A stretch of DNA of 57,624 bases from a virus (IMGVR_UViG_3300025357_000014:1-57624), one strand, 5' to 3'; numbered from the stretch's first letter, positions 1 to 44,473 are shown. A program made the numbers and translations. Notes: generated by a model not told the origin, from the letters alone.

Positions 1-297
1 TTCTACTTCCTTGAGGCTGGACGTAAGATTGGTGTCTACCTCTGTGACCAGCGTGCCTACGGTACAGCACTTGCCATGATCAAAGACAATGGTCGTGATG
101 CAGTACTGCCACGTTACTTGGCTACACTTAACACACTCTCAACTGAGCAAGTTGAGCAGTTCAAGACTGAAGCTCAGTCTGGTGCTAAGAAGCGTAACGC
201 AGCTCAGCAAAAGTTGTTCTTATCAGTATTCAAGAACATCAAGAGCACTATCGTAAGCCTCGTGCCTACGAAGTCAGAAGTAGAATCTACTAACTAG
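1..297 (+). CDS. hypothetical protein, 5'-partial
   Basis: Frame is open from base 1 (FYFLEAGRKIGVYLCDQRAYGTALAM...) to TAG at 295-297, so the gene starts upstream of the window. Confidence 0.75.
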   Translation, partial: FYFLEAGRKIGVYLCDQRAYGTALAMIKDNGRDAVLPRYLATLNTLSTEQVEQFKTEAQSGAKKRNAAQQKLFLSVFKNIKSTIVSLVPTKSEVESTN

Positions 298-307
298 TAG
301 ATAAGCA

Positions 308-338
308 TTACATCCTGGGTATGATGTAAAACTGCCCA
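308..338 (+). ncRNA. H-type pseudoknot motif, copy 1
   Basis: Stem TTACATC/GATGTAA with loop CTGGGTAT; loop TGGGTA pairs with downstream TGCCCA. Same architecture at 6793 and 8308 with compensatory stem changes. Confidence 0.75.
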
Positions 339-430
339 CCCACACATCATAGATTTTGTATGTACCCTTCAATGGAACTGTGTGGGGCCATGCTGTGAAG
401 CATTAATTAACCCAAAAGAAAGGAATTATC

Positions 431-703
431 ATGTCAATAGATGAGGCATTCAATGTATTCATAGAAGAGTACAAAGGTATTGAATGTAAGCAACAATTCG
501 TTCTCGGCCCAGTCTTCAAAAATTGGGAGGGAACTATTGAATGGGCTAATAATCTCTATGGTACTACTAATAGTGATTGGATAGTAATGACTGAGGGAGA
601 TAATAATGTTCCCCGCACTACAGGATTAACTGCGACTAAAAGGCGTAAGTTATCTTCTAAGACAGTACGCATTATTATTCAGCCCATGTTTGCAATAGCT
701 TAG
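431..703 (+). CDS. hypothetical protein
   Basis: 90-aa ORF with an AACCCAAAAGAAAGGA leader/SD. Confidence 0.7.
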   Translation: MSIDEAFNVFIEEYKGIECKQQFVLGPVFKNWEGTIEWANNLYGTTNSDWIVMTEGDNNVPRTTGLTATKRRKLSSKTVRIIIQPMFAIA

Positions 704-783
704 GCTTGCTTAGATGCTTATAACTTAGGCTTGTATACGCTAAGCTAAATGCTTTATGTGGAACATATACGAACACTTGTTAG

Positions 784-799
784 TGTTCCACGTGGAACA
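784..799. promoter_or_regulatory. parS-type 16-bp palindrome TGTTCCACGTGGAACA
   Basis: Perfect palindrome matching the bacterial chromosomal parS consensus TGTTNCACGTGNAACA; an extra half-site GTGGAACA lies at ~758-765. Confidence 0.6.
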
Positions 800-819
800 T
801 ATGTATCGATTCGATATAT

Positions 820-863
820 GCCCCTCATGTATAATCATATAGGTTATATGTGGGGGGCTTTAT
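820..863 (+). terminator. long G-U-containing hairpin followed by TTTAT (possible terminator or structured RNA)
   Basis: GCCCCTCATGTATAATC pairs with GGTTATATGTGGGGGGC; short U tail only. Confidence 0.35.
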
Positions 864-958
864 CATAGCCTAAAAAAACTTGCATGTGTTTAGACACACG
901 CATTGCACTCTGTTTTCAGATATATCTGAATTCATATGGTAACTCTAATTTGTATACA

Positions 959-1076
959 TAGTAGGTTGCAATGGCATCCGTACTTATTCACCTTGATGAT
1001 GGTATATACGTCTAACTCTTACCCCCCGGTAAAGACGTATGTATCGAGTGAGTACGGGTGTCATTGGGACATACTA
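959..1076 (+). ncRNA. long rod-like RNA stem-loop
   Basis: 969-989 pairs with 1046-1066 (21 bp, 4 G-U) and 1001-1013 with 1033-1045 (13 bp, 2 G-U); capped by TTACC-CCCC-GGTAA. Confidence 0.65.
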
Positions 1077-1134
1077 TAGACGTGAGTCTAGAGATGTCTT
1101 CATTACCCAAAGTAAGAAAGAAAGTAGGTTAAGT

Positions 1135-1542
1135 ATGCCGAGCGTACTTCAGTTAGATAGATGCTGTTGGAACTATCATTTGCAGGTTAGTGATTATGAG
1201 GGGCTCCCGCCGATGGCTAAGGAGTTAACTCATGTACACATTCACCTTGCATCTGTGGAATACTTTGATGTGGTGGCTATTGCTACCATACAGAGTAACT
1301 TCAATGGTTTGTGGGATTTGCTTACAACGAATCCCCGCGCCAATGAGGCCTCAGCATCTGAGTTATTGAGTCAGTTGAAGAGTAACATTCGTGCTAGCTA
1401 TCGCCAGGAGTTTAAGTCTGGTTTGCTAGTGCCTGTGCATAACTGTTCTCCCCGCCGCGTCCAGAATTCATTCGAGCACATCATGTTCAATCAGGGTGTT
1501 GTTTTGTATGATCCTGAGCGTGACGGCGTACCTCAGTTCTAG
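1135..1542 (+). CDS. hypothetical protein
   Basis: Track start 1039 lies inside the RNA rod; ATG 1135 follows an ACCCAAAGTAAGAAAGAAAGTAGG leader. Confidence 0.65.
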   Translation: MPSVLQLDRCCWNYHLQVSDYEGLPPMAKELTHVHIHLASVEYFDVVAIATIQSNFNGLWDLLTTNPRANEASASELLSQLKSNIRASYRQEFKSGLLVPVHNCSPRRVQNSFEHIMFNQGVVLYDPERDGVPQF

Positions 1543-1550
1543 GATATCTA

Positions 1551-1853
1551 ATGGCTAATACTATTAAATGTACTATGTGCTGGAAAGAGACTCCATTACA
1601 GTTCCCCGACATTGATGGGGCTGAGTCTCAGGTAGAGAATGGTGTTCAGCTCATATTCCAAGTAGGATATGGTATGTTCACTGATGTTGACTTTGGTAGC
1701 GAATGGTCTTCGCCCGAGGCTATCCTTTGTCATGACTGTGTGATTAAAGTCTTGGATTTATTCCCTGAACCATTCAGGAAACGATTCCAAGATGGTCACG
1801 CTGTTGGTACAAAGGGTTGTGATGGGTGCAGCTATTCGTTTCAGATAGACTGA
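1551..1853 (+). CDS. hypothetical Cys-rich (probable Zn-binding) protein
   Basis: CTMC, CHDC and CDGC motifs; AGGA SD. Confidence 0.7.
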   Translation: MANTIKCTMCWKETPLQFPDIDGAESQVENGVQLIFQVGYGMFTDVDFGSEWSSPEAILCHDCVIKVLDLFPEPFRKRFQDGHAVGTKGCDGCSYSFQID

Positions 1854-1910
1854 TTGTTGCACAGTCCTCACCTCGATCATTAAGGTGGGGACGATGGGAT
1901 GATCAGTCCC

Positions 1911-1937
1911 CCACTAGGGATGGTGGTTAAACTATCC
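1911..1937 (+). ncRNA. divergent H-type pseudoknot copy
   Basis: CCAC-TAGGGATG-GTGG-TTAAAC-TATCC: 8-nt loop and TAAAC linker as in the other copies; preceded by a 10-bp hairpin at 1864-1892. Confidence 0.4.
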
Positions 1938-1970
1938 ATGCAGTACAACCCAAAGTAGGAGGTTAGGTAC

Positions 1971-2579
1971 ATGAGTACACTGCGTAAGCTGTGTAGTTGT
2001 GTAGTTCTTGCTGCTACGGCGAGTACGGTACCACAAGCGAGTGCAATTGTGAATCCTGGGCAACCCCAGGTGGAACCAATTACACGTGCTGTTGCTCCCA
2101 CTGATGTGTTGTTTAGTACGGAGGTTATATCTCCCACTATTCTGACATCATACAGTGATAGCCAGCCGCTTGCAGTACCTACAAAGCCATGGTTCAGGTT
2201 TACACCTAGGTATTTACCTGGTGAGAACCCTGAGCTGCAGCAATGGGACACAACAGACACAGATGCAACAGCAACATGGCCTGATGCTGCTGATCCAGTA
2301 CGGCAATTGCCGATGGCGATTCAAGTGAAGTTTGCTTGCATTCGTTATCACGAGAGCCGCAATCACCTACACTCGGTTAACATAACGAGTGGTGCTGGTG
2401 GTTGGTATCAGTTCACCCCGTACATCTGGGGGTATGCAGTAGCACAACTACCTGGATTGCCTGCATCAATTGCGCAAGCAACTGGTGCTCAGCAGTCTGA
2501 AGTAGCTGTGTTTTACTACAAACGTAATGGTAGTCTTTACCCTGAATGGGGTGGGGACGCTGGCGTTTGTAACTTGTAG
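1971..2579 (+). CDS. secreted Rpf-like lytic transglycosylase
   Basis: N-terminal signal peptide; C-terminal CIRYHESRN...GAGGWYQFTPYIW...ATGAQQSEVA...W...C matches the resuscitation-promoting-factor domain with its catalytic Glu (ES motif). Confidence 0.8.
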   Translation: MSTLRKLCSCVVLAATASTVPQASAIVNPGQPQVEPITRAVAPTDVLFSTEVISPTILTSYSDSQPLAVPTKPWFRFTPRYLPGENPELQQWDTTDTDATATWPDAADPVRQLPMAIQVKFACIRYHESRNHLHSVNITSGAGGWYQFTPYIWGYAVAQLPGLPASIAQATGAQQSEVAVFYYKRNGSLYPEWGGDAGVCNL

Positions 2580-2581
2580 TA

Positions 2582-2612
2582 AATGGTATGGGTTCCACCA
2601 TTAACGGGCCCA
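2582..2612 (+). ncRNA. H-type pseudoknot motif, variant copy
   Basis: Stem AATGGT/ACCATT; loop TGGGTTC pairs with downstream GGGCCCA. Confidence 0.6.
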
Positions 2613-2638
2613 CTTACCCAAACAAGAAAGGCAGTAAA

Positions 2639-3070
2639 ATGACAAGTAAGAAAATGAGTGAGATGATTCAAGATACTCTCGAGTTAATCGATAGCATTCT
2701 TAATCGTCCTGCTACTAGGAGTCAGGTACTTTCAGTGATCAAGCACATTGAATCACTAGAATCTAAGTCTGAATCTAAAGCAGCAGTAGCCACTGAGACT
2801 AGGATAGTTAAGCCTAAGCCTAAAAAGCAACGGTCTTACATATCTTGGCGTGACCACACCTTTGAAGGTTGGTTTACCAATGTCTTGGATGGCAATGCAC
2901 ATCTTATCACGTACACTGAGATGACTAACTTAGTACCAGAATGGCGTAAGATTAACCGTTCTAGTATGCGTAACCGATTCCGTACGGAAGCCGAACGTCG
3001 TGGTTACAAATCAGTGACTGTTAGGTTTGACAACGAAGAGAAAATGATTTTCGTTCAAGCTTTAATGTAA
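2639..3070 (+). CDS. hypothetical basic protein, possibly DNA-binding
   Basis: Start moved to ATG 2639 after ACCCAAACAAGAAAGGCAGTAAA; K/R-rich. Confidence 0.7.
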   Translation: MTSKKMSEMIQDTLELIDSILNRPATRSQVLSVIKHIESLESKSESKAAVATETRIVKPKPKKQRSYISWRDHTFEGWFTNVLDGNAHLITYTEMTNLVPEWRKINRSSMRNRFRTEAERRGYKSVTVRFDNEEKMIFVQALM

Positions 3071-3084
3071 CCTAGTTTAACTAG

Positions 3085-3144
3085 GTGGAGTAAGTGGTAT
3101 CACAGATGGGAATCTGGGAGGGGTTCAACTCCCCATACTCCACG
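3085..3144 (+). ncRNA. tRNA-like element 1 (no anticodon loop)
   Basis: Acceptor-like GTGGAGTA/TACTCCAC, D-loop-like AGTGGTA, CAGAT-GGGA-ATCTG hairpin in place of the anticodon arm, T arm GGGG-TTCAACT-CCCC. Confidence 0.6.
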
Positions 3145-3249
3145 ATGGTATCTTACACATACCAGGCAGTAACAGGATGCGGGTGGACGCAGCCCTGACA
3201 CAATACAGAAACCACATACCTAAAACAAGAAGAAAGTAAGGAAAAGATT

Positions 3250-4005
3250 ATGAGTGAAGCAACCTACGAAGGCATGCCTATCCCACAGTGCTACATTGAC
3301 ATTCAAGATGCTTTGGAGTCTGGTACAGATCGTATCATTCTCTACGGTCGTCCTGGTACTGGTAAGACTTACTCCGGCCTCACAGCTGGTGTGTCTGATC
3401 CAAGTCAGTCTGAGCGTCTAGTATGTACTGAGGACATGACATCAGCCGACGTTTCAGGTGCATTCATGCCTAACGTAAGCGGTGGGTTTGAGTTCCTACC
3501 TGGTGCAGCTTTGCGTGCTTGGACCAACGGTACTCGTTTAGTTATTGACGAGATCGATAAAGCTGGCGGTGACGTATTCGCCCAGCTCCTAGCATTCACT
3601 GACACCGTAGACTCAGCATCATTTACACGACCAGACAATGGGGAAGTAGTTCGTCCTAAGCCTGGTTTCTCTGTTGTGATGACCTCTAACATTGAGGATC
3701 CACGTGACCTGCCTACTGCACTTAAGGACCGGTTCCCGTTTGCAATCGAAGTCAATGCAGCACACCCTGCTGCCTTGGTTAAGTTGCCACCACAGCTTCG
3801 TCTGTTGGCTGCAACTATGATTGCTGCAGAGCCTGGTCAACGTGCTAGTTTGCGTGCGTTCTATGAGTTCAATCGTCTACTATCTGGTGGTCGGTTCTCT
3901 CTTGAGCGTGCAGCTAACCTGATCTTCGGACCAGTGTTAGCAACGCAGATCATACGCTGCATGTCTGTTGGCACATTGGAGCCTGAATTCACACTCACGG
4001 TGTAA
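3250..4005 (+). CDS. MoxR/CbbQ-type AAA+ ATPase
   Basis: Walker A GRPGTGKT, Walker B LVIDEID, sensor TSN, arginine finger ALKDRF. Confidence 0.88.
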   Translation: MSEATYEGMPIPQCYIDIQDALESGTDRIILYGRPGTGKTYSGLTAGVSDPSQSERLVCTEDMTSADVSGAFMPNVSGGFEFLPGAALRAWTNGTRLVIDEIDKAGGDVFAQLLAFTDTVDSASFTRPDNGEVVRPKPGFSVVMTSNIEDPRDLPTALKDRFPFAIEVNAAHPAALVKLPPQLRLLAATMIAAEPGQRASLRAFYEFNRLLSGGRFSLERAANLIFGPVLATQIIRCMSVGTLEPEFTLTV

Positions 4006-4008
4006 ATC

Positions 4009-5493
4009 ATGAGTGACGAACTAATGGATCCAATTATTCCACTAGCTGATGTTGTGTCTGCATTTCGTGATGACATAACTACAACAACTAAGTGGCAAGT
4101 GCAAGCAACAGCAGGTGAGTTCGGTGCTGGTGTTGACTTTGCTGCTGGGATTCTAGCTGTCCCCCTCTCGGGTGACAGTTATTCTCAGCAAGTACAGTTA
4201 CGCAAGCTAGTTGAACTACGTTGTTCTCCTACTGATCCAGCTTTATACAAACAAGTAGCTACCTTTTATCAGGAACAAGGTATCACTGAGAGTGTTCTCC
4301 GTGCTGCCGAAGCTGCTCGTATCTCAGCTATCACTGAGAAGTTTGCTGTACAGTTTGGTTTGAAATCAGAACCAGATGGATCAGAGAAGAATCGTGGCAA
4401 GAATCTAGCATCTGCTAAGTCTGCTGCTGCATGGGACCAGGCTGTTGAGTTCACACTTAGACATCATGGTACGAAAGCCTTTGACTCGTTCGCGAGTGGT
4501 GTTCGTGCCGTTAATCCTGAGTGGAGCAAGTCATTGCGTGCTCTCAACAAGCGACTCACTAGTACACTAGCTGGTTCAGCACGTGGTCTCGGTGACACTA
4601 GTCCAATGCAATTTGGCCATGGTGTTACTGGGCCTGCTGGTTTTGCCAACTCTGTGTATGCTGCTAGTGTTGTACGTGACTACTTGTCAGATGGATATAA
4701 AGCTCCTGATGACATGCGAAGAATGCGTCAAGCACTAGAAGAGAAGCGTGCTGAAAACTATGGTGATGTTGATCCTAAAGATTTATCTGAGCGAGGTAAA
4801 TTAACTCCGCAAGAGATGAGTGTTGACGACGATATTCCTGATGGTTTTGAGTTTAGTGACGACTCTGACTTTGGTAAGCTACGTGTTTGTGACACGTTGC
4901 CACTAACAGTTGAGGTTCCAGGTTACATGCATCGTAAACGTAAAGCAATGACATCTGGTCGTCGCATTGCGTATCCATCTCGTATGCTTACTGACCCACA
5001 ACGTCGTGTGTTCGGCACTAAGGTTCGTGTTAAGGGTGGTATCGTAGTCATTGACATCTCAGGTTCTATGAGTCTGAGTCAAGATGACATCGAAGCCATC
5101 GTTAACAACGCACCTGCTGCTGTTATCATTGCGTACAGTGACTGTGGCGATGACCCTGAGCCTAACGCTTGGGTCTTAGCTAATCGTGGCTGGCGTGTTA
5201 GGGAAGTAGGTAACATCGGTGGTCATAACAATGGTGTTGACGGACCAGCTCTTACATGGGCTATTCGTCATCGTCATCGTAATGAGGAAATCATCTGGGT
5301 CACTGACGGTCACGTTACTGGCATCAAAGGTGGTTCCAATGCACAACTAGCTGTTGAGTGTGCTAAGTTAGTTAAGAAACACAAAATCATTATGATTCCT
5401 AGTGTTGAAGAGGCTGTTAAGCAGTTCAAATCTGGTAGGTTTATTAATAAACCTCACGGTTATGTACGCGAAGCCTTGCTTGGCAAACTTTAA
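4009..5493 (+). CDS. vWA-domain protein, partner of the AAA+ ATPase
   Basis: MIDAS motif IDISGSMS and downstream VTDG; adjacent to the MoxR-like ATPase. Confidence 0.82.
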   Translation: MSDELMDPIIPLADVVSAFRDDITTTTKWQVQATAGEFGAGVDFAAGILAVPLSGDSYSQQVQLRKLVELRCSPTDPALYKQVATFYQEQGITESVLRAAEAARISAITEKFAVQFGLKSEPDGSEKNRGKNLASAKSAAAWDQAVEFTLRHHGTKAFDSFASGVRAVNPEWSKSLRALNKRLTSTLAGSARGLGDTSPMQFGHGVTGPAGFANSVYAASVVRDYLSDGYKAPDDMRRMRQALEEKRAENYGDVDPKDLSERGKLTPQEMSVDDDIPDGFEFSDDSDFGKLRVCDTLPLTVEVPGYMHRKRKAMTSGRRIAYPSRMLTDPQRRVFGTKVRVKGGIVVIDISGSMSLSQDDIEAIVNNAPAAVIIAYSDCGDDPEPNAWVLANRGWRVREVGNIGGHNNGVDGPALTWAIRHRHRNEEIIWVTDGHVTGIKGGSNAQLAVECAKLVKKHKIIMIPSVEEAVKQFKSGRFINKPHGYVREALLGKL

Positions 5494-5503
5494 TCACGTG
5501 TTT

Positions 5504-5598
5504 GTTGGTATCTTATAAACCAACAACTGGGGTGTCTATCAAGCGACACCTCAGTACCATGCATTACATTGTAATGCAGTGTATCCAAATGGATACTG
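5504..5598 (+). other. chain of four intergenic hairpins
   Basis: GTTGGT/ACCAAC, ACTGGGGTGTC/GACACCTCAGT, TGCATTAC/GTAATGCA and GTATCCA/TGGATAC. Confidence 0.5.
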
Positions 5599-5622
5599 TA
5601 ACCAAAATAACAAGGAGTAAGT

Positions 5623-6033
5623 ATGTCAGAAGAAGAGTTCAACTTCGGTGATCTCGATCTACAATTGGATGAGAGTACTCAAGCGCGTATTGCACACGCT
5701 GAGTTTCTTGAATCAATTAAAGATTGGGGTTCTACCATGGGATTGATTGCTGTTCCATTCACTCACATGGCTCAGGCTGTTGCTATTGCTGAGGAAGATG
5801 ATACATCAGAAGATGAAAAGCACAAGTTATACAAACGTGTTGCAACTGCAATGCCAACTGGTGTTGCTATTGTTGTTGAGCATATCAATGAGTTGTATAC
5901 TATGTTGCAAGTGGAAGCCGTAAAAATACTCGGTGAACCATTCATGTTCCATGATAGTCATCACCCACATTGTGATGGTACCCGTGAAAACTGCGGTCAC
6001 CAAGATCACTACAAATCCGATACCAATGAGTAA
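5623..6033 (+). CDS. hypothetical acidic protein with His/Cys-rich C-terminus
   Basis: 136-aa ORF, AAGGAG SD, HDSHHPHC...CGHQDH tail. Confidence 0.75.
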   Translation: MSEEEFNFGDLDLQLDESTQARIAHAEFLESIKDWGSTMGLIAVPFTHMAQAVAIAEEDDTSEDEKHKLYKRVATAMPTGVAIVVEHINELYTMLQVEAVKILGEPFMFHDSHHPHCDGTRENCGHQDHYKSDTNE

Positions 6034-6046
6034 GGAAGGAGGAACC

Positions 6047-6205
6047 ATGGAAGAAACACTCAACCGATTGAAAGCAGAGACTCAGCAGATGAGAGAGATG
6101 GTAGCACAATCAACCACTCTTGAAACTGCTCAGGCTATGGCAATACGCATGATCAACCTAGTTGATACAGTTGTGGAATTGCTAGTTAAGCAATCAGTTA
6201 AGTAG
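6047..6205 (+). CDS. small helical hypothetical protein
   Basis: ATG 6047 follows AAGGAGG; MEETLNRLKAETQQMREM... Confidence 0.65.
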   Translation: MEETLNRLKAETQQMREMVAQSTTLETAQAMAIRMINLVDTVVELLVKQSVK

Positions 6206-6792
6206 TTGAGGACAAGAACGTTAAGGCTCTACTAATCTATTAAGTTAGGTTATGTTAGAGTGCTTTTCCTTCTTGTTGTTGCATCTACATAAGCCTATCT
6301 AAACAAGTTAGTGGGCCTTATCTATCCATAGCAGCTTGCAACCTGCTGTGGCGTTAGAACACCACGCGAGTGTGTTCAACCTACATGATTTGTCATGAGT
6401 CATGTAGGTTCTGTTGTGGTACTACCAGTTAATCGCCTTGCCAGTGTGCGCTTTGATAGGCACGAGAGCCACGCAATGATACTTGTACGCCACACACTCA
6501 GCCTGAAGGGAAGTTCAGGTAGGAAGCGCATCCTTAACAGCACTATGAGGTCTAGGCCACTGACCCAAAAAACGTGGCAAGCCTATGCATGCTGTCATGG
6601 TGTGCATAGGCACTCAGCCTAACTTATGTACTGACTACGTCTATGAGATAAGTTAGATGACTCATCATGTGGGGAAGCACATGGAGGTCAGCCTAAACCT
6701 TAATTAGCGACCTGTTGGTGGTGTAGGTGAGCCAACGACCTGAGTGGTGTGAAGGTAACCACTAGCCTTGTGAGTGAGCTTTTGTAACTCTC
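6206..6792 (+). ncRNA. candidate large multidomain structured ncRNA (~590 nt)
   Basis: No credible ORF; more than 10 helices, nested multibranch closure (6307-6321 with 6545-6564), GNRA loop, two GGGAAG loops and long-range pairing 6437-6443/6575-6581. Confidence 0.7.
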
Positions 6793-6820
6793 TGTCCTGG
6801 GTATGACATTAAAGTGCCCA
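6793..6820 (+). ncRNA. H-type pseudoknot motif, copy 2
   Basis: TGTC-CTGGGTAT-GACA-TTAAAG-TGCCCA. Confidence 0.75.
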
Positions 6821-6855
6821 CTTAAACATTACCCAAATAGAAAGGCAGTAAGATT

Positions 6856-7143
6856 ATGCGTATAGAAGGAAGACACAACGATGATAAGACTGAGATTCAA
6901 ATCATTGTTAAAATAGAGGGTGAAGGAGAATTTGAAGCCTTTACTCATTTCTTTCAAGAAATGATTCAGAACATGGCTAGTGCTGCGGATGCTCTTCTCA
7001 TTGATCCAATCAATGAAAAAGTATACAAAGGCGAAGACGTGACTGATGAAATGGTTCTGGATGCAATGAAAGATTTTGCTATTCAGAAAGCAACTGAAGC
7101 CAACCGTGATTCGGATCCAAGTATGCGTATCAATTTCATCTAA
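6856..7143 (+). CDS. hypothetical protein
   Basis: 95-aa ORF with an ACCCAAATAGAAAGGCAGTAAG leader. Confidence 0.75.
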   Translation: MRIEGRHNDDKTEIQIIVKIEGEGEFEAFTHFFQEMIQNMASAADALLIDPINEKVYKGEDVTDEMVLDAMKDFAIQKATEANRDSDPSMRINFI

Positions 7144-7156
7144 AGAAAGGAATAAC

Positions 7157-7540
7157 ATGTCAAGAAGAATATCATGGCGTAAATCGCCTGATGCTGATAT
7201 CTGGCGTGCTAAAGTTCCACAACATTACAAAGTTGAATGTAGACTTGTAATACATGCTGGTGTAGTTAACAGTTCAGTAATGAATAAGAATGCTAGACTA
7301 GAAGTACAAGTACCAACAACAGGTAGGAATTATAAAACCGTAATAATTGTAGAATTTTATAGCAGTTGGTGGGCCAAAGAGTATGTAGATTCTTTACTTC
7401 AAGTAATGTATTTTTATGATTTTGATAGTAAGGATCATGCATTTCAATGGTTCATTGATATTTTAAGTAAAGTACAAAAAATAGATCAACCTGAAACATC
7501 AGAAGGTAGTTGGACTAGTCTAACTGGTTGGTCTAGATAA
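7157..7540 (+). CDS. hypothetical protein
   Basis: Start moved to ATG 7157 after GAAAGGA (MSRRISWRK...). Confidence 0.7.
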   Translation: MSRRISWRKSPDADIWRAKVPQHYKVECRLVIHAGVVNSSVMNKNARLEVQVPTTGRNYKTVIIVEFYSSWWAKEYVDSLLQVMYFYDFDSKDHAFQWFIDILSKVQKIDQPETSEGSWTSLTGWSR

Positions 7541-7546
7541 TAAAAA

Positions 7547-7604
7547 CAGAAAGCCCGGGAGGGCTCTTGGTGGAGTTGACCGTCCCCAACTGATGAAGAG
7601 GTCA
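7547..7604 (+). ncRNA. type II hammerhead ribozyme (predicted cleavage after C7566)
   Basis: GAAA 7549-7552; stem III GCCC-GGGA-GGGC; CUC cleavage triplet; stem I TTGG(T)GGA/TCCCCAA; CTGATGA 7590-7596; loop I TGACC pairs with 3' GGTCA. Stem II is vestigial. Confidence 0.7.
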
Positions 7605-7629
7605 TAACCAAAAGTAAGAAAGGAAACAT

Positions 7630-8298
7630 ATGTCTAAGGACATTTTGTGGATTGCTATGCGCGATGGTAAAGGCTGGGCTTCCAGTCGTACTCGTGACAT
7701 GGTAGACTTAGCCTTTACGGTTAGTAAGTATGACAAGAAAAACGGTGGATCGTTAGTTGTCATTCGTAAACCTAATCGTGATGATGATCCAAAGTCGCGT
7801 GCGACTGTGGTGATTGGCATGGTCTACTATGACTCAGTATCTGAAGCTAAGGCTGCAGTTAAAGCTGCTGTTGACAATGCTAACATGAGTAGTTCAAATA
7901 AGGAGAGTGCTCGCACTACACTATTAGAACAGATGTTAATAACGTCTAACACCAATGCTAATGCAATTATTGTTATTGGTCATAAGGTAAGATCACAAGG
8001 TCATTACAGTTCAACTACTGTTATGAATAGTGTTAATACTACAGTTGAAAGCACAATGCAGGAGGAAGTTGAAGCTGAAATAGAGCGTAGACTAGAAGCT
8101 GCACCAGATGCTATGCAACAATGGTTAGACATGACTAAAGATCTTACTGAGACTTTTAGCATGACCAAAGCTGTAGCAGATGTACAAGCAGTAGTTGAGG
8201 TTGCCTTTGACCCTAGCACATGGCAAGAAGGTCAGCCTTACCCATCAGAGTACATGCTGGTGGGTGGTCGTCTCATGAAGATGGAATGGCCTAAGTAG
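7630..8298 (+). CDS. hypothetical protein
   Basis: 222-aa ORF with an AACCAAAAGTAAGAAAGGA leader. Confidence 0.8.
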   Translation: MSKDILWIAMRDGKGWASSRTRDMVDLAFTVSKYDKKNGGSLVVIRKPNRDDDPKSRATVVIGMVYYDSVSEAKAAVKAAVDNANMSSSNKESARTTLLEQMLITSNTNANAIIVIGHKVRSQGHYSSTTVMNSVNTTVESTMQEEVEAEIERRLEAAPDAMQQWLDMTKDLTETFSMTKAVADVQAVVEVAFDPSTWQEGQPYPSEYMLVGGRLMKMEWPK

Positions 8299-8307
8299 TA
8301 TCGTAGT

Positions 8308-8336
8308 ATCACCTGGGTATGTGATTAAACTGCCCA
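8308..8336 (+). ncRNA. H-type pseudoknot motif, copy 3
   Basis: ATCAC-CTGGGTAT-GTGAT-TAAAC-TGCCCA. Confidence 0.75.
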
Positions 8337-8365
8337 TTCAAACTAAAATAAGTAAGGAATATATA

Positions 8366-8761
8366 ATGAAAACATATTTTATCAAAGCTGGCACCGATGT
8401 TGATATTGATGTTATTCCATGTGATCAAATAAACTCATATGATTTCATCAAAGAAAGCATAGGTGGTGGTACATTTGATTGTATTGCTTTACCTAGTTTA
8501 GGTATAGACATCTGGATTGATGATGATGGTAAGTTAGTTGAGGATCCTAAAATAAATCTGCTTGGTACTGCACTCTGGATGAAAGAGTACGGTCCAACTG
8601 ATACAATTATGGGAAACATCGTTATTACTGGTGGTGTTGATGATGATGGTAATACTATTGGCATGACTGAGGAAAAGGGTAAAGAAATAATTGCCTTAGC
8701 TAAAGTATTTGTTGATGCACTTACCAATCAAATAATGGATGAAATTATACTAGGAAAATAA
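8366..8761 (+). CDS. DUF3846-like protein
   Basis: IGGG.FDCI...IWIDDDGKL...N...T.L...DTIMGNIVITG..D.DG.T pattern; start moved to ATG 8366 after TAAGGA. Confidence 0.7.
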   Translation: MKTYFIKAGTDVDIDVIPCDQINSYDFIKESIGGGTFDCIALPSLGIDIWIDDDGKLVEDPKINLLGTALWMKEYGPTDTIMGNIVITGGVDDDGNTIGMTEEKGKEIIALAKVFVDALTNQIMDEIILGK

Positions 8762-8768
8762 TAAAGCA

Positions 8769-8816
8769 GCCCTAGTCTGGTGATGAAGTAAGCTAGTTCA
8801 ATTCTAGCTTAGGGCG
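8769..8816 (+). ncRNA. tRNA-like element 2 (acceptor + T arm, no anticodon arm)
   Basis: 7-bp GCCCTAG/TTAGGGC stacked on 5-bp GCTAG-TTCAATT-CTAGC; 16-nt connector containing TGGTGATGAAGTA. Confidence 0.7.
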
Positions 8817-8865
8817 CTCCCAAGTAGGGAATGTAGTATAACCAAAAACAATAAGGAGTAAGCAC

Positions 8866-9414
8866 ATGGGTTTAGACCAGATGCTATTTGCAGTAACAAG
8901 CCATCCCGATAACCACGACTTCGGATACGATCCTGATGCTCAGTATCGTCAGTTTGGTAGTTGGCGTAAGCATCCCTATCTTCAAGGTTGGATGGAAAAA
9001 CTATTCAATACTAAGGCAGATGCTCAAGGTTATGTAGGTCATGGTGAATACCATGATGGTATTGAAGTTATGGCGCGTGAAGCTGATGGCAATGAGATGA
9101 CACCTGAGATGATGCAGCAAGCATTAGATTCTGATTCTGAAATGCTTAAGAAGATTAAACAAGAACAGTTTACTTCTAAAGCTATTCATACAACTAAGGA
9201 TCGCATCTTTAATCAGCAATGCGTCAGACTTAACATAGGTGATTTAGATCAACTAGAGATGGCTATTAAGTTAGGTGAGCTACCAGCAACCAAAGGATTC
9301 TTCTTTGGTGATGATGCTAGCGAACACTATAAAGAATACGATTTAAAAGTTATTGAAGCAGCTCGTCAAGCTGTTAAACTAGGTCTAGATGTATACTACG
9401 ATTCATGGTGGTAA
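8866..9414 (+). CDS. conserved phage hypothetical protein (MGLD...WRKH...GFFFG...YYDSWW type)
   Basis: Motif pattern of a widespread uncharacterised phage family; TAAGGAG SD. Confidence 0.75.
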   Translation: MGLDQMLFAVTSHPDNHDFGYDPDAQYRQFGSWRKHPYLQGWMEKLFNTKADAQGYVGHGEYHDGIEVMAREADGNEMTPEMMQQALDSDSEMLKKIKQEQFTSKAIHTTKDRIFNQQCVRLNIGDLDQLEMAIKLGELPATKGFFFGDDASEHYKEYDLKVIEAARQAVKLGLDVYYDSWW

Positions 9415-9447
9415 CATCTAACAAGGTTGCATTTGGGTAATGCATCA

Positions 9448-9498
9448 GTCCCAGCCAGTCGGTGGTGAAGTATGGTGGTTCGACTCCACCTTGGGACG
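9448..9498 (+). ncRNA. tRNA-like element 3 (acceptor + T arm, no anticodon arm)
   Basis: 7-bp GTCCCAG/TTGGGAC, T arm GGTGG-TTCGACT-CCACC, connector containing GGTGGTGAAGTA; followed by the same 17-mer GCTCCCAAGTAGGGAAT as element 2. Confidence 0.72.
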
Positions 9499-9539
9499 CT
9501 CCCAAGTAGGGAATACATAAAACAAGTAAGGAGAATAAC

Positions 9540-9950
9540 ATGGGTGACCGTGGACATGTAGAGATTATCAGTGAGGGAGATCCAACACTGTATTACTACA
9601 CACACTGGGGTGCTTCAGGTTTACCAACAGATGTTGCTGATGCTTTGCATCGTGGCAAAGGACGTTGGGATGACAGTGAGTATCTCAATCGTATCATCTT
9701 CTCAGAAATGATTAAGGATTCTGTTCTATCAGATACTGGGTATGGTATTGGTTTCCACCAGCATGGTGATGTATGGCGTATTGTAACAATAGATCACGTC
9801 AACAAAACTGCTGGTATTAAAGAAATCAACTACGATAAAGTAGATTGGTCTAACTACAATGAAGATGATGTAGTATGGGATTGGAAATTAGAACCAGTAC
9901 CATTTGAAGTGTTTGTTTATCTTAATAGTTTAGTTACAGCAAAGGAATAA
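9540..9950 (+). CDS. conserved phage hypothetical protein
   Basis: MGDRGHV...YYYTHWGA...RWDDSEYLNRIIF; TAAGGAG SD. Confidence 0.75.
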   Translation: MGDRGHVEIISEGDPTLYYYTHWGASGLPTDVADALHRGKGRWDDSEYLNRIIFSEMIKDSVLSDTGYGIGFHQHGDVWRIVTIDHVNKTAGIKEINYDKVDWSNYNEDDVVWDWKLEPVPFEVFVYLNSLVTAKE

Positions 9951-9952
9951 TC

Positions 9953-10117
9953 ATGGGTAAAAAACTAGACAAAGCTTTCTATCAACTGAGCAATGAAACT
10001 CGTCATCACATTAACTTAGCAATGGCTAAGCAAGAAGATTACGAAAATGGATTTGCTCAGGGATTTTCGGAAGCACTACGCATAGTAGCAAAGATAAGAG
10101 AGGAGGAGAATGAGTAA
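9953..10117 (+). CDS. small hypothetical protein (54 aa)
   Basis: Hand-translated MGKKLDKAFYQLSNETRHH...IREEENE; AAGGA SD. Confidence 0.6.
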   Translation: MGKKLDKAFYQLSNETRHHINLAMAKQEDYENGFAQGFSEALRIVAKIREEENE

Positions 10118-10274
10118 AACATTTACATGTCCTCGTTGTGAAGAAACTTGGACGGGCTTTCCAGCCCTATCTAGGCTAGACAACAGGACAGAGATTTGCT
10201 CACCATGTGGCATGCAGGAAGGTCTTGATGATTACTTTCACCAGCCATTAGTAAAATATAAATTAACCAATTAA
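10110..10274 (+). CDS. small zinc-ribbon protein (54 aa)
   Basis: Hand-translated MSKTFTCPRCEETWTGFPALSRLDNRTEICSPCG...; AGGAGGAG SD. Confidence 0.7.
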   Translation: MSKTFTCPRCEETWTGFPALSRLDNRTEICSPCGMQEGLDDYFHQPLVKYKLTN

Positions 10275-10289
10275 AAAAGGAATAAAACA

Positions 10290-10454
10290 ATGAAAACATT
10301 AATCGTAGCAAACGTACTAATGTGCGTAGCCGATGCTGTCCTAGCTATTGCTAGCTTAAATGCTGTCAATGCAGGTCTAGCTATCATGTGTGGGTTCAGT
10401 GCTTGGTACATCAACCAATTGCGAAACCTACGCAAACCAAAGCATAAGGCTTGA
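10290..10454 (+). CDS. small membrane protein (54 aa)
   Basis: Hand-translated MKTLIVANVLMCVADAVLAIASLNAVNAGLAIMCGFSAWY...; hydrophobic with a basic tail. Confidence 0.6.
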   Translation: MKTLIVANVLMCVADAVLAIASLNAVNAGLAIMCGFSAWYINQLRNLRKPKHKA

Positions 10455-10479
10455 CAAACTCATGTAACCGCAGTATAGT
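10451..10479 (+). promoter_or_regulatory. sigma70/SigA-type promoter for a leaderless HNH transcript
   Basis: TTGACA-17 nt-TATAGT with the GTG start 6 nt after the -10 box. Confidence 0.7.
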
Positions 10480-10485
10480 TACATC

Positions 10486-10911
10486 GTGAACCAAGTACGC
10501 CGCAACGCTCTCTATAACTTACAATCCAAGTATGTCGAATCTAACCTATGTTGGGTATGGACTGCTGCCATTAGTTCTGATGGCTACGGAGTATTCCGTA
10601 TGGAGGGTAAGTTATGGAGGGCGCATAGGGCGTCATATACTCTATATAAGGAAGATATACCTAAGGGTTTGCAGATAGATCATTTGTGTAGGAATAAGCT
10701 ATGTGTTAATCCTGAACATTTAGAGGCTGTTACACCTAAAGAGAATAGTAGGAGAGCTGCTGCTTTTAAGACCCATTGCCCCCGCGGACATATCTACACT
10801 ATCTATGGTAGGGTATGGGGAAAGAGATCTAAAGCTAAATACTGTATTCAGTGTAACAGGGATAAGACGAAGGCTCGACGGGCCTCCGCGAAAGTCGATA
10901 AAAATAAGTAA
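10486..10911 (+). CDS. HNH endonuclease
   Basis: CWVW...GYG...AHRASY...IDHLCRNKLCVNPEHLE plus a C-terminal KTHCPRGH...CIQC Zn finger. Confidence 0.88.
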   Translation: MNQVRRNALYNLQSKYVESNLCWVWTAAISSDGYGVFRMEGKLWRAHRASYTLYKEDIPKGLQIDHLCRNKLCVNPEHLEAVTPKENSRRAAAFKTHCPRGHIYTIYGRVWGKRSKAKYCIQCNRDKTKARRASAKVDKNK

Positions 10912-10923
10912 GAAAGGAGGAAT

Positions 10924-11106
10924 ATGGAAGAACATCCATTATGTTGGTGTGAGCATGAATATGAAGCACACCTATGGAATATTAGTCAAAATCCAGAATT
11001 TGAAGACTTAGAATCTGGAGAATGCCGTGAATGTGGGTCTTGGACTCGTAAGAATAAGTTTGAGACATATTGTAGTGAATACAAAGCATATAACCCAGTT
11101 AAGTAA
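10924..11106 (+). CDS. small Cys/His-rich protein
   Basis: CWCEH...H...CRECG...C; GAAAGGAGG SD. Confidence 0.65.
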   Translation: MEEHPLCWCEHEYEAHLWNISQNPEFEDLESGECRECGSWTRKNKFETYCSEYKAYNPVK

Positions 11107-11118
11107 GAAAGGGGTACT

Positions 11119-11367
11119 ATGCCCACAGATAGTGAAGCTAAGCTAGAACTGCTAAACAATGCAGTCAGCGAAATGGCATTGCTTGGATATCGACTAGATA
11201 AGATATTAGTTGGATTTAAGCTATATCATGAGCTTAGAGGTACTCCCGACATTGAACAATATCAAATGGTATTGCAAATGTACGAGGATGGTATGGCAGC
11301 TATGGAAGAACAAATGGTTAGATACCATAGGTTATTTTCATATCTGAAAGATCTGGTTGGTGAGTAA
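11119..11367 (+). CDS. hypothetical protein
   Basis: 82-aa ORF with GAAAGGGG SD. Confidence 0.65.
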   Translation: MPTDSEAKLELLNNAVSEMALLGYRLDKILVGFKLYHELRGTPDIEQYQMVLQMYEDGMAAMEEQMVRYHRLFSYLKDLVGE

Positions 11368-11411
11368 TCACCATCGGAATGTGGTACACTTAACCCAAAG
11401 GAAAGGAAAAT

Positions 11412-12095
11412 ATGAGCAAATTGGCTGATGTTGTTAAGAAAGTTCAAAAACTTCTTAATGTTGCCAACAGGAGTGACAAACCTGGTGAGATTGCAGCAGC
11501 ACAATTGCTAGCCCAACAACTGATAACTAAGTATCAGATTGAAGAAGCTCAGCTCCATGGGAATAGTATGAATGGTGATATTACCTCGGTACATATCGCT
11601 ACGCCAGACCCATATGCCATAGATAAAGCTACACTGCTTAACTCTATCGCTTTACCTAACTTCTGTAAGGTATTGCGCGGTGATGAGTATTGTATCATTT
11701 ATGGCTACGCTAGTGACATTGAACTCTGTGTTGCATTATATGATGTATTATCTATGCACATGATCAGTGAAATGACAGTTAAGCTAAAAGAGTTAAAGAA
11801 ATCTTCAACTGAGAAGATCCGTACTAAAGAATGGGTCAGAGGGTTCTTCGGCGGTTATGCTATCAATATTGGCGAGCGTATTAAGCAAGCTAAGAAAGAT
11901 ACCATCAAAGAAGTAGACAGTAACGGAACATCGCTAGCTCTTGTGTTACGAGATAAGCAACATGTTATTGAAGATTATTGGCAACAACTAGTTAGAAACA
12001 CAGGATCTAAGCGTAAGATTACTTCTATATCAGGCTATAAAGCTGGTAAAGAATCTGCCGCTGCCGCGGATCTCAACAAAAATAAAATAGAATAG
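11412..12095 (+). CDS. DUF2786-domain protein
   Basis: N-terminal KVQKLLNVA...EIAAAQLLAQQLITKYQI and C-terminal GY.AG...A..ADL patterns typical of this family. Confidence 0.75.
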   Translation: MSKLADVVKKVQKLLNVANRSDKPGEIAAAQLLAQQLITKYQIEEAQLHGNSMNGDITSVHIATPDPYAIDKATLLNSIALPNFCKVLRGDEYCIIYGYASDIELCVALYDVLSMHMISEMTVKLKELKKSSTEKIRTKEWVRGFFGGYAINIGERIKQAKKDTIKEVDSNGTSLALVLRDKQHVIEDYWQQLVRNTGSKRKITSISGYKAGKESAAAADLNKNKIE

Positions 12096-12104
12096 GATAA
12101 GTAT

Positions 12105-44378: not shown

Positions 44379-44400
44379 ACTATTCCTTTACTTTACTATG

Positions 44401-44473
44401 TGCCCCAGGCAAGACTCGAACTTGCAACCTGCGGGTTAGAACTCCGATGCTCTATCCGTTGAGCTACTAGGGC
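44401..44473 (-). tRNA. tRNA-Arg(TCT)
   Basis: GCCCTAG-TA-GCTC AACGGATA GAGC-A-TCGGA GTTCTAA CCCGC-AGGTT-GCAAG TTCGAGT CTTGC-CTGGGGC-A; A20 Arg identity element; no encoded CCA; two anticodon-stem mismatches. Confidence 0.85.

What the first reader, a model, noticed from the sequence alone, without database searches (positions are those of the whole stretch)
298..9540. Early arm punctuated by a toolkit of structured RNAs: candidate phage mRNA cutting-and-protecting system
Seen: nearly every larger intergenic gap in the first 9.5 kb holds a discrete RNA module. These are pseudoknots (308, 1911, 2582, 6793, 8308), tRNA mimics (3085, 8769, 9448), a hammerhead (7547), a long rod (959) and a ~590-nt ncRNA (6206). 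All are on the + strand, usually just after a stop codon and just before an AC-rich leader/SD. I saw few consensus promoters or U-tailed terminators here. Inference: one long early transcript is cut into units by self-cleavage and by host RNase P/Z/III, and new 5' ends are protected or translationally activated by pseudoknots. This would be a multi-element analogue of T7 early RNase III processing. A phage Hfq/Sm-like gene on the other arm could be part of the same system.
Basis: partly seen in the sequence, partly recalled or inferred. Interest (0 to 1): 0.9.

Follow-up and report, generated by a model that had tools for sequence, protein, structure and literature searches.

The report
Structured RNA punctuation between phage early genes
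The gaps between the early genes of this freshwater phage hold conserved folded RNA modules, including a compact pseudoknot also found in many unrelated phages and bacteria, armless tRNA look-alikes and a large non-coding RNA, which probably mark where a long message is cut and its ends protected, though no cutting has been shown.

Summary
Three of five claimed pseudoknots (308, 6793, 8308) belong to one H-type pseudoknot family. Both helices covary. I found it in many unrelated viral contigs, two cultured phages and 33 bacterial/archaeal genome contigs, and it has no Rfam 15 match. All three tRNA mimics are real armless tRNA-like minihelices: acceptor stem, T arm and D-loop-like GG, each followed by a small hairpin. 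They recur with compensatory changes at orthologous junctions in four related phage records. The 959 rod, a three-hairpin module at 5494-5622 and the ~600-nt non-coding RNA at 6206-6855 are also supported. The hammerhead at 7547, the pseudoknots at 1911 and 2582 and the Hfq/Sm gene are not. Everything lies on the + strand, just after stop codons and before A-rich Shine-Dalgarno leaders, and only in the early arm. The "cut and protect" reading fits this anatomy. In five other phages the pseudoknot sits 3-17 nt before a real tRNA. In a near-identical contig a pseudoknot occupies the junction that holds a tRNA mimic in the window. No RNA-end data exist, so the mechanism is inferred. The pseudoknot's strong sequence conservation, and its link to a conserved short upstream reading frame (uORF) in bacteria, leave a regulatory role open.

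The parts
308..338 (+). Pseudoknot copy 1. S1 is 310-314 paired with 323-327, and S2 is 316-321 paired with 333-338. It starts 7-9 nt after the tandem stop codons at 295-300.
   Evidence: R2 49.6 bits; pattern hit; sequence
704..935 (+). Cluster of strong hairpins. It includes the inverted GTGGAACA repeats and a 17-bp GC-ended hairpin at 820-858 followed by a short T run. This may be a regulatory or terminator region.
   Evidence: z -7.21; terminator-like site
959..1076 (+). Long, nearly continuous RNA rod. It overlaps the mechanically called ATG at 1039; the real start of that gene is probably ATG 1135.
   Evidence: + strand z -6.24 against - strand z -1.80; leader seen in the sequence
1904..1946 (+). 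Hairpin with a possible loop-to-3' pairing.
   Evidence: R1 13 bits, E=5; absent from the R2 list; gap z -1.58
2583..2613 (+). Hairpin with a possible pseudoknot pairing. It may be a divergent relative of the family, but it is not verified.
   Evidence: R2 5.3 bits, partial match; seen by eye
3085..3164 (+). tRNA-like module 1. It has an 8-bp acceptor stem (3085-3092 with 3136-3143), a small GGGA-loop hairpin at 3103-3116, a T arm at 3120-3134 and discriminator G3144, followed by hairpin 3146-3164.
   Evidence: Descriptor hit; Rfam tRNA-Sec 22 bits, sub-threshold; gap z -2.79
5499..5597 (+). Row of four hairpins after the vWA-like gene. Three of them are conserved in L087.
   Evidence: z -4.73; 8 of 25 pairs compensatory against L087
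6206..6792 (+). Large structured non-coding RNA with repeated hairpins carrying GGGGAAGC-type loops. It ends in pseudoknot copy 2.
   Evidence: Homologues found; 19 of 50 predicted pairs compensatory among six sequences; z -5.39; no Rfam hit
6793..6820 (+). Pseudoknot copy 2. S1 is 6793-6796 paired with 6805-6808, and S2 is 6798-6803 paired with 6815-6820.
   Evidence: R2 46.0 bits
7552..7595 (+). Two hairpins followed by a CUGAUGA word.
   Evidence: No hammerhead family at E<=10; z -1.46
8308..8336 (+). Pseudoknot copy 3. S1 is 8308-8312 paired with 8321-8325, and S2 is 8314-8319 paired with 8331-8336. It starts 9 nt after the stop codon at 8296-8298.
   Evidence: R2 50.1 bits
8769..8832 (+). 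tRNA-like module 2. The acceptor stem is 8769-8775 paired with 8809-8815, the T arm is 8792-8808 and the discriminator is G8816. The repeated 17-mer hairpin at 8816-8832 follows.
   Evidence: R3 60.6 bits; 17-mer repeat; covariation
9448..9514 (+). tRNA-like module 3 (9448-9497), followed by the same 17-mer hairpin at 9498-9514.
   Evidence: R3 64.6 bits; 17-mer repeat; covariation

Best explanation
The early arm is punctuated by three kinds of conserved cis-acting RNA structure that sit directly after stop codons. I read them as intercistronic cut-and-protect modules that work with host enzymes.

(1) The armless tRNA-like minihelices have a 12-bp acceptor/T stack, a T loop, D-loop-like GG and a purine discriminator, and no encoded CCA. 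They are substrates for host RNase P and/or RNase Z. A cut after the discriminator would leave the tRNA-like fold as a 3' cap on the upstream message. The hairpin two bases further on would become a 5'-terminal stabiliser of the downstream message.

(2) The compact pseudoknot belongs to the upstream unit and acts as a 3'-end cap that resists exonucleases.

(3) The long rod and the hairpin rows are further processing or stability sites.

Shown here: the structures, their covariation, their strand, their positions and their exchange at orthologous junctions. Inferred: every cleavage and every stabilising effect.
For: PSEUDOKNOT: STRUCTURE
- In 57 distinct sequences, 93.0% of cells pair against 79.0% in shuffles.
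- 8 of 11 pairs have double-sided changes.
- The covariation score is 0.391 against 0.137 in shuffles (0 of 500 reach it). Slid controls score <=0.061.
- S2 was not in the model, yet it covaries in hits found only by the model.
- U-G wobbles in S2 (31 of 57) mark the + strand.

PSEUDOKNOT: POSITION
- Of 85 unique instances, 34 have a sense open frame of at least 25 codons that stops 4-7 nt before S1. The antisense control gives 5 of 85.
- Spacers fall in all three frames.
- The upstream genes belong to unrelated families.
- Downstream features vary: SD plus ATG, a terminator, or a tRNA.
- Five pseudoknots end 3-17 nt before a sense tRNA. Routine RNase P cleavage there would leave the pseudoknot at the very 3' end of the upstream RNA.
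- In L001 and L002 the pseudoknot stays with its upstream gene while the downstream gene differs.

tRNA MIMICS
- In 13 distinct sequences, 97.3% of cells pair against 79.1% in shuffles.
- 9 of 12 pairs have double-sided changes. The last T-stem pair is G-C in 13 of 13.
- All hits lie on the early-gene strand. They start within a few bases of a stop codon in most of the 13 contexts shown (33 nt after it at 9448) and are followed by R-C-U plus a hairpin.
- At E<=0.1 there are 6, 6, 7 and 2 hits in four related records. This count includes one weak partial hit to a true tRNA in each.
- The phage's own tRNA-Arg also lacks an encoded CCA.

OTHER
- Both module families occur only in the early arm of the window.
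- The rod folds far better on the + strand.
- A small pseudoknot aptamer is reported as an RNase P substrate (abstract of PMC12710915, seen in the listing).
Against: - There are no RNA data of any kind.
- Promoter types of the unknown host or phage are not covered by the scan, so each gene could have its own promoter.
- RNase P cleavage 5' of a tRNA mimic would leave the upstream message with only a few unprotected bases. The model therefore needs the 3' cut to dominate.
- The pseudoknot's loop and S2 sequences are nearly invariant across phyla. A mere roadblock would not obviously need that, and it suggests recognition by a specific factor or ligand.
- In 12 bacterial contigs the pseudoknot overlaps or directly follows the stop codon of a conserved 20-26-codon uORF ahead of Rrf2-type regulators and other genes. 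That looks regulatory.
- A terminating ribosome 4-7 nt upstream would have to melt S1.
- In the loci of the 77 more distant relatives searched (about 48-59% identical in the AAA ATPase), only L003 has strong pseudoknot matches. None has a short tRNA mimic.
Confidence: 0.42

Rival explanations
1. The pseudoknot is a sensor or operator. It would be a riboswitch-like aptamer, or the binding site of a conserved protein or of the ribosome, that couples termination of the upstream frame to expression of the next gene. On this reading the phage copies are regulatory rather than protective.
For: - L1, L2, L3 and S2 are nearly invariant across viral contigs, cultured phages of Synechococcus and Microbacterium, and 33 genome contigs from many phyla.
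- It has an H-type topology with an A-rich L3, as in small riboswitch pseudoknots.
- In 12 bacterial contigs it overlaps or directly follows the stop of a conserved uORF that has its own SD.
- In each of 5 genomes searched there is exactly one copy.
- In L230 the operon behind it encodes an Rrf2 regulator, a ferredoxin and hydroxylamine reductase.
- Some copies are followed by terminators, like riboswitch expression platforms.
Against: - No Rfam riboswitch model matches.
- Phages carry several copies ahead of unrelated small genes.
- The SD lies 10-30 nt beyond the pseudoknot and is not part of it.
- Some copies precede tRNA genes, which need no translational control.
- No protein family is shared by the pseudoknot-bearing loci. 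The largest cluster covers 16 of 83 loci.
Confidence: 0.25
2. The modules are parts of independent transcription units. Each gap would hold a promoter for an unknown host or phage sigma factor together with a stem-loop, as in the promoter-plus-stem-loop cassettes of T4-type phages (recalled from memory). The structures would serve mainly as terminators, insulators or recombination boundaries for gene cassettes.
For: - Each gap ends in a similar A-rich leader with an ACCCAAA or AACCAAAA word before the SD. That word could hide a promoter or a transcription start.
- The difference between the window and L001/L002 has its end points in these leaders, so a gene with its trailing module behaves as a cassette.
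- The hairpin at 820-858 looks like a terminator.
Against: - There is no enrichment of sigma-70-type promoters or of U-tailed terminators.
- A tRNA elbow with a conserved T loop and G53:C61-type pair, and a pseudoknot with covarying S2, are far more specific than a terminator or insulator needs.
- The strand asymmetry and G-U pairs point to RNA, not DNA.
Confidence: 0.15
3. The tRNA mimics are decaying tRNA genes, and the other hairpins are chance or neutral structure in relaxed intergenic DNA.
For: - More distant relatives carry true tRNA genes in the same arm.
- 3 of 11 gaps show no significant fold.
- The relaxed descriptor search has a high background: 68 hits against 26-36 in shuffles.
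Against: - Twelve distinct mimics (the 13th alignment row is a partial hit to the true tRNA-Arg) share the same truncated plan and keep pairing through compensatory changes at orthologous junctions.
- They always lie in the sense orientation after a stop codon, with a hairpin behind them.
Confidence: 0.04

Closest known systems
tRNA punctuation of polycistronic RNA (mitochondria; the MALAT1-mascRNA type of tRNA-like 3'-end formation). Recalled, not tested here.
   Same: tRNA-shaped folds between functional units would be recognised by RNase P and RNase Z, so that the ends of neighbouring RNAs are defined by tRNA-processing enzymes.
   Different: Here the folds are 45-60 nt armless mimics with no anticodon arm, in a tailed dsDNA phage. 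Each is paired with a downstream hairpin. No cleavage has been shown.
RNase III processing sites of the phage T7 early region.
   Same: Structured elements between early cistrons of a long transcript cut it into units and leave protective hairpins.
   Different: Only the 959-1076 rod resembles an RNase III substrate. The main modules are a pseudoknot and tRNA mimics. No RNase III gene is present in the five related records searched.
Small H-type pseudoknot riboswitches such as preQ1-I and SAM-II. Topology recalled; family membership tested with Rfam.
   Same: It is a compact H-type pseudoknot with a one-base L1 and an A-rich L3, often shortly before an SD.
   Different: No Rfam model matches. 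It occurs in multiple copies per phage. It sits 4-7 nt after stop codons of unrelated genes, and sometimes before tRNAs.
Exonuclease-resistant viral RNA structures (flavivirus xrRNA). Recalled.
   Same: It is a small pseudoknotted fold with conserved tertiary-contact bases that could stop an exonuclease and define a stable RNA end.
   Different: The proposed block would act against 3'-to-5' enzymes in bacteria. No resistance has been measured.
GOLLD and ROOL large ornate RNAs of phages. Names recalled; Rfam tested.
   Same: The 6206-6792 RNA is a large, multi-hairpin, phage-borne non-coding RNA from lake metagenomes.
   Different: There is no match to any Rfam family. The RNA was found only in this small clade: 6 viral and 17 metagenome loci, several of them the same contigs.
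Candidate structured RNAs from IMG/VR (PMC10690425; abstract and passages read).
   Same: That study lists 8495 new candidates from the same collection, including tRNA-like structures and motifs upstream of genes.
   Different: Its lists are in supplements that I could not open, so I cannot say whether these motifs are among them. The passages returned by my term search of the main text describe no stop-codon-proximal pseudoknot or armless tRNA mimics.

Membership tests
Canonical tRNA | Cloverleaf with an anticodon arm, recognised by tRNA finders | tested here: not met
   ARAGORN and Rfam find only the tRNA-Arg at 44400-44473. Only 16-27 nt lie between the acceptor stem and the T arm.
Canonical tRNA | 7-bp acceptor stem stacked on a 5-bp T stem, a UUCRANY-type T loop and a closing G-C pair | tested here: met
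   97.3% of cells pair, and the last T-stem pair is G-C in 13 of 13.
RNase P / RNase Z substrate | Cleavage at the 5' end of the acceptor stem and after the discriminator | not testable with these tools
   The structural prerequisites are present. No RNA run holds the sequence.
Hammerhead ribozyme | Score against the Rfam hammerhead models | tested here: not met
   No hammerhead family appears at E<=10 in the 10-kb search or the 121-nt search.
Hammerhead ribozyme | Three stems around the CUGANGA and GAAA core | tested here: not met
   The core words and two hairpins are present in permuted order, but no stem II pairing lies next to the core (by eye; fold).
Known pseudoknot riboswitches and other Rfam families | Match to a curated covariance model | tested here: not met
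   Nothing reaches the gathering score. The best hits in a 76-nt search are 11 bits or lower. There are no hits in 12 bacterial loci.
Riboswitch (as a functional class) | Ligand-dependent fold, with association to one pathway | tested here: inconclusive
   Phage contexts are diverse. Bacterial contexts share a uORF, and some share an Rrf2 regulator. Ligand binding is not testable here.
RNase III site of the T7 early type | Extended double-stranded hairpin of about two helical turns between cistrons | tested here: inconclusive
   The rod at 959-1076 meets the length requirement in silico. There are no comparative or cleavage data.
Promoter-plus-stem-loop cassette of T4-type phages | A consensus early promoter beside each stem-loop | tested here: not met
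   22 promoter-like sites against 22.0 expected. Other promoter types were not tested.
GOLLD / ROOL | Match to the Rfam model | tested here: not met
   No hit.
Hfq / Sm protein (claimed partner) | Hfq or LSM domain encoded in the window | tested here: not met
   PF17209 and PF01423 give no match at E<=1 in the window. LSM gives none in five related records.

The most novel reading that the evidence does not exclude
The pseudoknot may be an undescribed RNA class that works with a universal machine, either RNase P or the terminating ribosome, as a stop-codon-proximal signal. It would then be used from phages of cyanobacteria and actinobacteria to the uORF leaders of redox and iron regulons in Planctomycetes, Omnitrophota and others. 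In this phage clade it would be interchangeable with armless tRNA mimics. Together they would form a bacterial-virus counterpart of mitochondrial tRNA punctuation, with built-in caps for both new RNA ends.
Probability: 0.3. Interest if true: 0.9.

Novelty: new variant of a known kind. Interest (0 to 1): 0.78.

Why it matters
How large phages divide and stabilise long early transcripts is known for only a few model phages. This window points to a modular RNA toolkit that borrows the host's tRNA-processing logic.

It also exposes a 30-nt pseudoknot with textbook covariation. I found it in phages of distant hosts and in many bacterial phyla, and it is absent from Rfam 15. If it caps 3' ends or senses termination, it would be a new general element of bacterial gene expression and a compact part for engineering mRNA stability.

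Two cultured carriers, Cyanophage S-RIM4 and Microbacterium phage Count, make it directly testable.

Tried and rejected
REJECTED READINGS
- Recoding. I considered frameshifting or stop-codon readthrough stimulated by the pseudoknot. I rejected it because stop-to-S1 spacers fall in all three frames, no slippery words are visible before the stops (by eye), and in the two cases I read by eye a reading continued through the pseudoknot ends within about 16-18 codons.
- Hammerhead at 7547. Rejected.
- Pistol, type III antitoxin repeats, solitary CRISPR repeats and sigma-54 promoters. I considered these from memory only. I set them aside because the strand order, spacing or dispersed single-copy arrangement does not fit. 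They were not tested beyond Rfam.
- Complementarity of the loop to the 16S rRNA 790 region. This rests on recall and is not above chance by my own estimate (about 0.3 such matches expected), so I dropped it.
- A shared protein partner. All-against-all BLASTP of open frames from 83 pseudoknot-bearing loci gave no family in more than 16 loci.
- Phage-encoded RNase III, CCA-adding enzyme and LSM. None in five related records.

SEARCHES THAT FOUND NOTHING
- Near-identical DNA in cultured phages: none for the first 10 kb.
- RNA evidence: no RNA holder was listed for 298-9540.
- Literature. Motif strings and uORF peptide strings gave nothing relevant. Two topic searches gave no description of these elements. 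PMC10690425 was read as passages. The preprint 10.64898/2026.09.22.753630 was read as passages and is unrelated. Supplements were not available, and for PMC10690425 they may bear on novelty.

CAVEATS
- The MFE z-scores of 7 of 11 gaps are weak (z > -2.8), and coding tiles themselves average z -1.2. Fold energy alone would therefore not have carried the case.

Full report
WHAT THE WINDOW IS

The window is a 57.6-kb fragment of an uncultured freshwater phage. IMG/VR holds it as a record estimated about 40% complete, and its GC content is 0.40.

Bases 1-12100 carry small + strand genes. The rest carries replication and virion genes on the - strand: a large DNA polymerase, a DnaB-like helicase, terminase and baseplate.

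The early arm includes an AAA ATPase at 3250-4005. Its relatives occur in 174 viral contigs, and 80 loci were kept. L001 and L002 are near-identical to the window. L003 is 59% identical in this protein, and the rest are about 50% identical.

THE GAPS

The ORF list and sequence give 11 larger + strand gaps. Rfam at gathering score finds only the tRNA-Arg on the other arm, and so does ARAGORN.

Permissive Rfam hits are all sub-threshold.

Promoter-like and terminator-like sites are not enriched: 22 against 22.0 expected, and 7 against 7.1 expected.

Fold z-scores are strong for these regions:
- 704-935: z -7.21.
- 930-1134: z -6.24.
- 5494-5625: z -4.73.
- 6206-6855: z -5.39.
- 3071-3249: moderate, z -2.79.

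The other gaps are weak, and coding tiles average z -1.2.

THE PSEUDOKNOT: STRUCTURE

Three gaps share an exact pattern, with 3 hits against 0.02 expected. The fold has these parts:
- S1 is a 4-6 bp stem closed by a C-G pair.
- The loop is 8 bases long.
- Six loop bases pair with a hexamer that follows a 4-6 nt A-rich linker.

A model built from five copies found strong matches only in the window, L001 and L003 among 80 sources.

Many of these must be chance matches. Even so, 48 of 129 pattern matches had at least four contiguous S1 pairs (this count includes the window and its two near-copies).

A second search gave 68 matches in 75 sources, 57 of them distinct. On these sequences:
- 93.0% of cells pair, against 79.0% in shuffles.
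- 8 of 11 pairs show double-sided changes.
- The covariation score is 0.391 against 0.137 in shuffles, reached by 0 of 500. Slid controls score 0.061 or lower.

Most rows were collected with a pattern that fixes the loop and the hexamer. The S2 evidence therefore rests on the hits found only by the model. In those hits three S2 positions change on both sides. S2 was not part of the model.

Several other phage loci hold two to four copies. The related records hold one to three strong copies each.

In the window only the three canonical copies score. The claimed copies at 1911 and 2582 do not.

THE PSEUDOKNOT: DISTRIBUTION

A stricter pattern found 33 genome contigs from very different phyla, among them two archaeal bins. 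Of the 35 matches, 32 have three or more S1 pairs. My estimate of about six chance matches is rough and comes from no tool.

Two cultured phages carry one copy each, intergenic and just after a coding sequence on the same strand: Cyanophage S-RIM4 and Microbacterium phage Count, at 40.9 and 40.8 bits. The S-RIM4 copy has a compensated S2.

No Rfam family matches the pseudoknot, in the window or in 12 bacterial loci.

THE PSEUDOKNOT: CONTEXT

Of 85 unique instances, 60 have a sense open frame of at least 25 codons that stops between -2 and 13 nt from S1. For 34 the distance is 4-7 nt. The antisense control gives 28 and 5.

In the stricter set, 15 of 23 spacers are 4-7 nt. They occur in all three frames, and the upstream proteins fall into 16 unrelated clusters.

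Downstream features vary:
- An SD and start codon 18-45 nt away in 15 of 39 instances.
- Nothing recognisable, or a more distant start, in the others.
- Terminator-like hairpins in two instances.
- A sense tRNA 3-17 nt away in five instances.

This asymmetry ties the pseudoknot to the unit that ends upstream. So do the copies that close the large non-coding RNA. So does the copy in L001 and L002, which keeps its upstream gene but faces a different downstream gene.

Where a tRNA follows, ordinary RNase P action would leave the pseudoknot at the 3' end of the upstream RNA. That step is inference.

THE BACTERIAL CONTEXT

In 12 of the genome contigs the pseudoknot overlaps or directly follows the stop of a conserved 20-26-codon reading frame that has its own SD. 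Synonymous third-position changes show that this frame is translated (by eye).

Five such genomes hold exactly one copy each.

In L230 the genes behind it are an Rrf2-family regulator, a ferredoxin-like protein and hydroxylamine reductase.

This is the main reason to keep a regulatory reading alive.

THE tRNA MIMICS

The elements at 8769 and 9448 have the following plan:
- A 7-bp acceptor stem.
- 16-19 unpaired bases that contain GG.
- A 5-bp T stem with a UUCRANY-type loop.
- A purine discriminator.
- Then the same 17-mer hairpin.

The element at 3085 has an 8-bp acceptor stem, a small extra hairpin and a 4-bp T stem.

A model from six sequences found 6, 6, 7 and 2 hits at E<=0.1 in the whole records behind L087, L204, L207 and L001. 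It found none in the record behind L003. All strong hits lie on the early-gene strand. One weak hit per record is the true tRNA.

On 13 distinct rows, 97.3% of cells pair against 79.1% in shuffles, and 9 of 12 pairs change on both sides.

The context is uniform: a stop codon, usually a few bases earlier, then the mimic, then R-C-U, a hairpin, an A-rich leader, SD and ATG.

Orthologous genes keep a mimic upstream while its stems covary. Their products begin MGLDQ and MGDRG.

Before the AAA ATPase gene, the window has the 3085 variant, L087 has a standard mimic, and L003 has a plain 12-bp hairpin.

THE OTHER MODULES

- The rod at 959-1076 is strongly strand-specific. I have no comparative data for it.
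- Three of the four hairpins at 5499-5597 are kept in L087, with 8 of 25 pairs compensated.
- The non-coding region 6206-6792 has homologues in 6 viral and 17 metagenome loci, several of them the same contigs.
- In every one of those matches the four free positions of my pattern were complementary, in five different combinations.
- RNAalifold on six sequences predicts 50 pairs, 19 of them with compensatory changes.
- The 75-codon frame inside that region is interrupted by a deletion in L087.

WHAT FAILS

- The hammerhead has no model support and no stem II.
- No Hfq or LSM domain is encoded in the window.
- No RNase III, CCA-adding enzyme or LSM is encoded in five related records.

MECHANISM

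The anatomy fits cutting by host tRNA-processing enzymes. A structured cap would stay on the upstream RNA, either the tRNA-like fold or the pseudoknot. A hairpin would sit two bases from the new downstream 5' end.

I give this 0.42. A regulatory pseudoknot gets 0.25, separate promoters with insulating structures 0.15, and decay or chance 0.04.

None of the cleavage steps is shown. No RNA run holds the sequence.

NOVELTY

I found no description of these elements in four literature searches and two papers read as passages.

The supplements of PMC10690425 list 8495 candidates from the same collection and may contain one or more of these motifs. I could not open them.

Noticed in passing
L230:1818-4684 (also L209, L211-L213, L217, L224, L225, L229, L236, L238, L239): In bacterial genome contigs the same pseudoknot overlaps or directly follows the stop codon of a conserved 20-26-codon reading frame that has its own SD and a His-Cys-x-x-Gly-Cys core. 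In L230 an Rrf2 regulator, a ferredoxin-like gene and hydroxylamine reductase follow. A palindrome overlaps a promoter-like site upstream in several of the contigs.
   Followed up: partly
window 1039-1135: The mechanically called start at ATG 1039 lies inside the long rod. ATG 1135 is preceded by the same ACCCAAA...AAG-rich leader as the other genes. The non-coding gap is therefore probably 704-1134.
   Followed up: no
window 746-858: There are inverted GTGGAACA repeats that look like an operator, followed by a 17-bp hairpin at 820-858 with a short T run. This is the only good terminator-like site on the + strand of the arm.
   Followed up: no
window 9427-9444: A small hairpin just before tRNA mimic 3 has a loop nearly identical to the pseudoknot loop. 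Its GGG could pair with the CCC in the mimic's acceptor strand, which would give an alternative fold. It did not score with model R2.
   Followed up: no
window 400-430, 1940-1970, 2610-2638, 3215-3249, 5598-5622, 6825-6855, 7600-7629, 8838-8865, 9515-9539: Every gene that follows a gap has an A/C-rich leader with an ACCCAAA or AACCAAAA word and AAG repeats before an AAGGAG-type SD. The leader gives weak sub-threshold Rfam hits to the phage-associated DUF2815 RNA, at 11-15 bits.
   Followed up: partly
L223:1-2150: A 2.1-kb contig binned as Saccharibacteria holds three pseudoknot copies. Two of them follow what look like tandem copies of the same gene end.
   Followed up: no
L271, L273, L279 (metagenome loci): Some homologues of the large non-coding RNA carry the hairpin with the GGGGAAGC-type loop twice in tandem. 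The RNA may therefore be built from repeated units.
   Followed up: partly
window 44400-44473 (- strand): The phage's tRNA-Arg (anticodon TCT) has no encoded CCA after the discriminator. The host must therefore add CCA after 3' trimming.
   Followed up: no
window 3250-5493: The AAA ATPase gene is directly followed by a 494-codon gene that I took to be vWA-like by eye. Pfam gave no hit for it. Its homologue follows the ATPase gene in L003.
   Followed up: no
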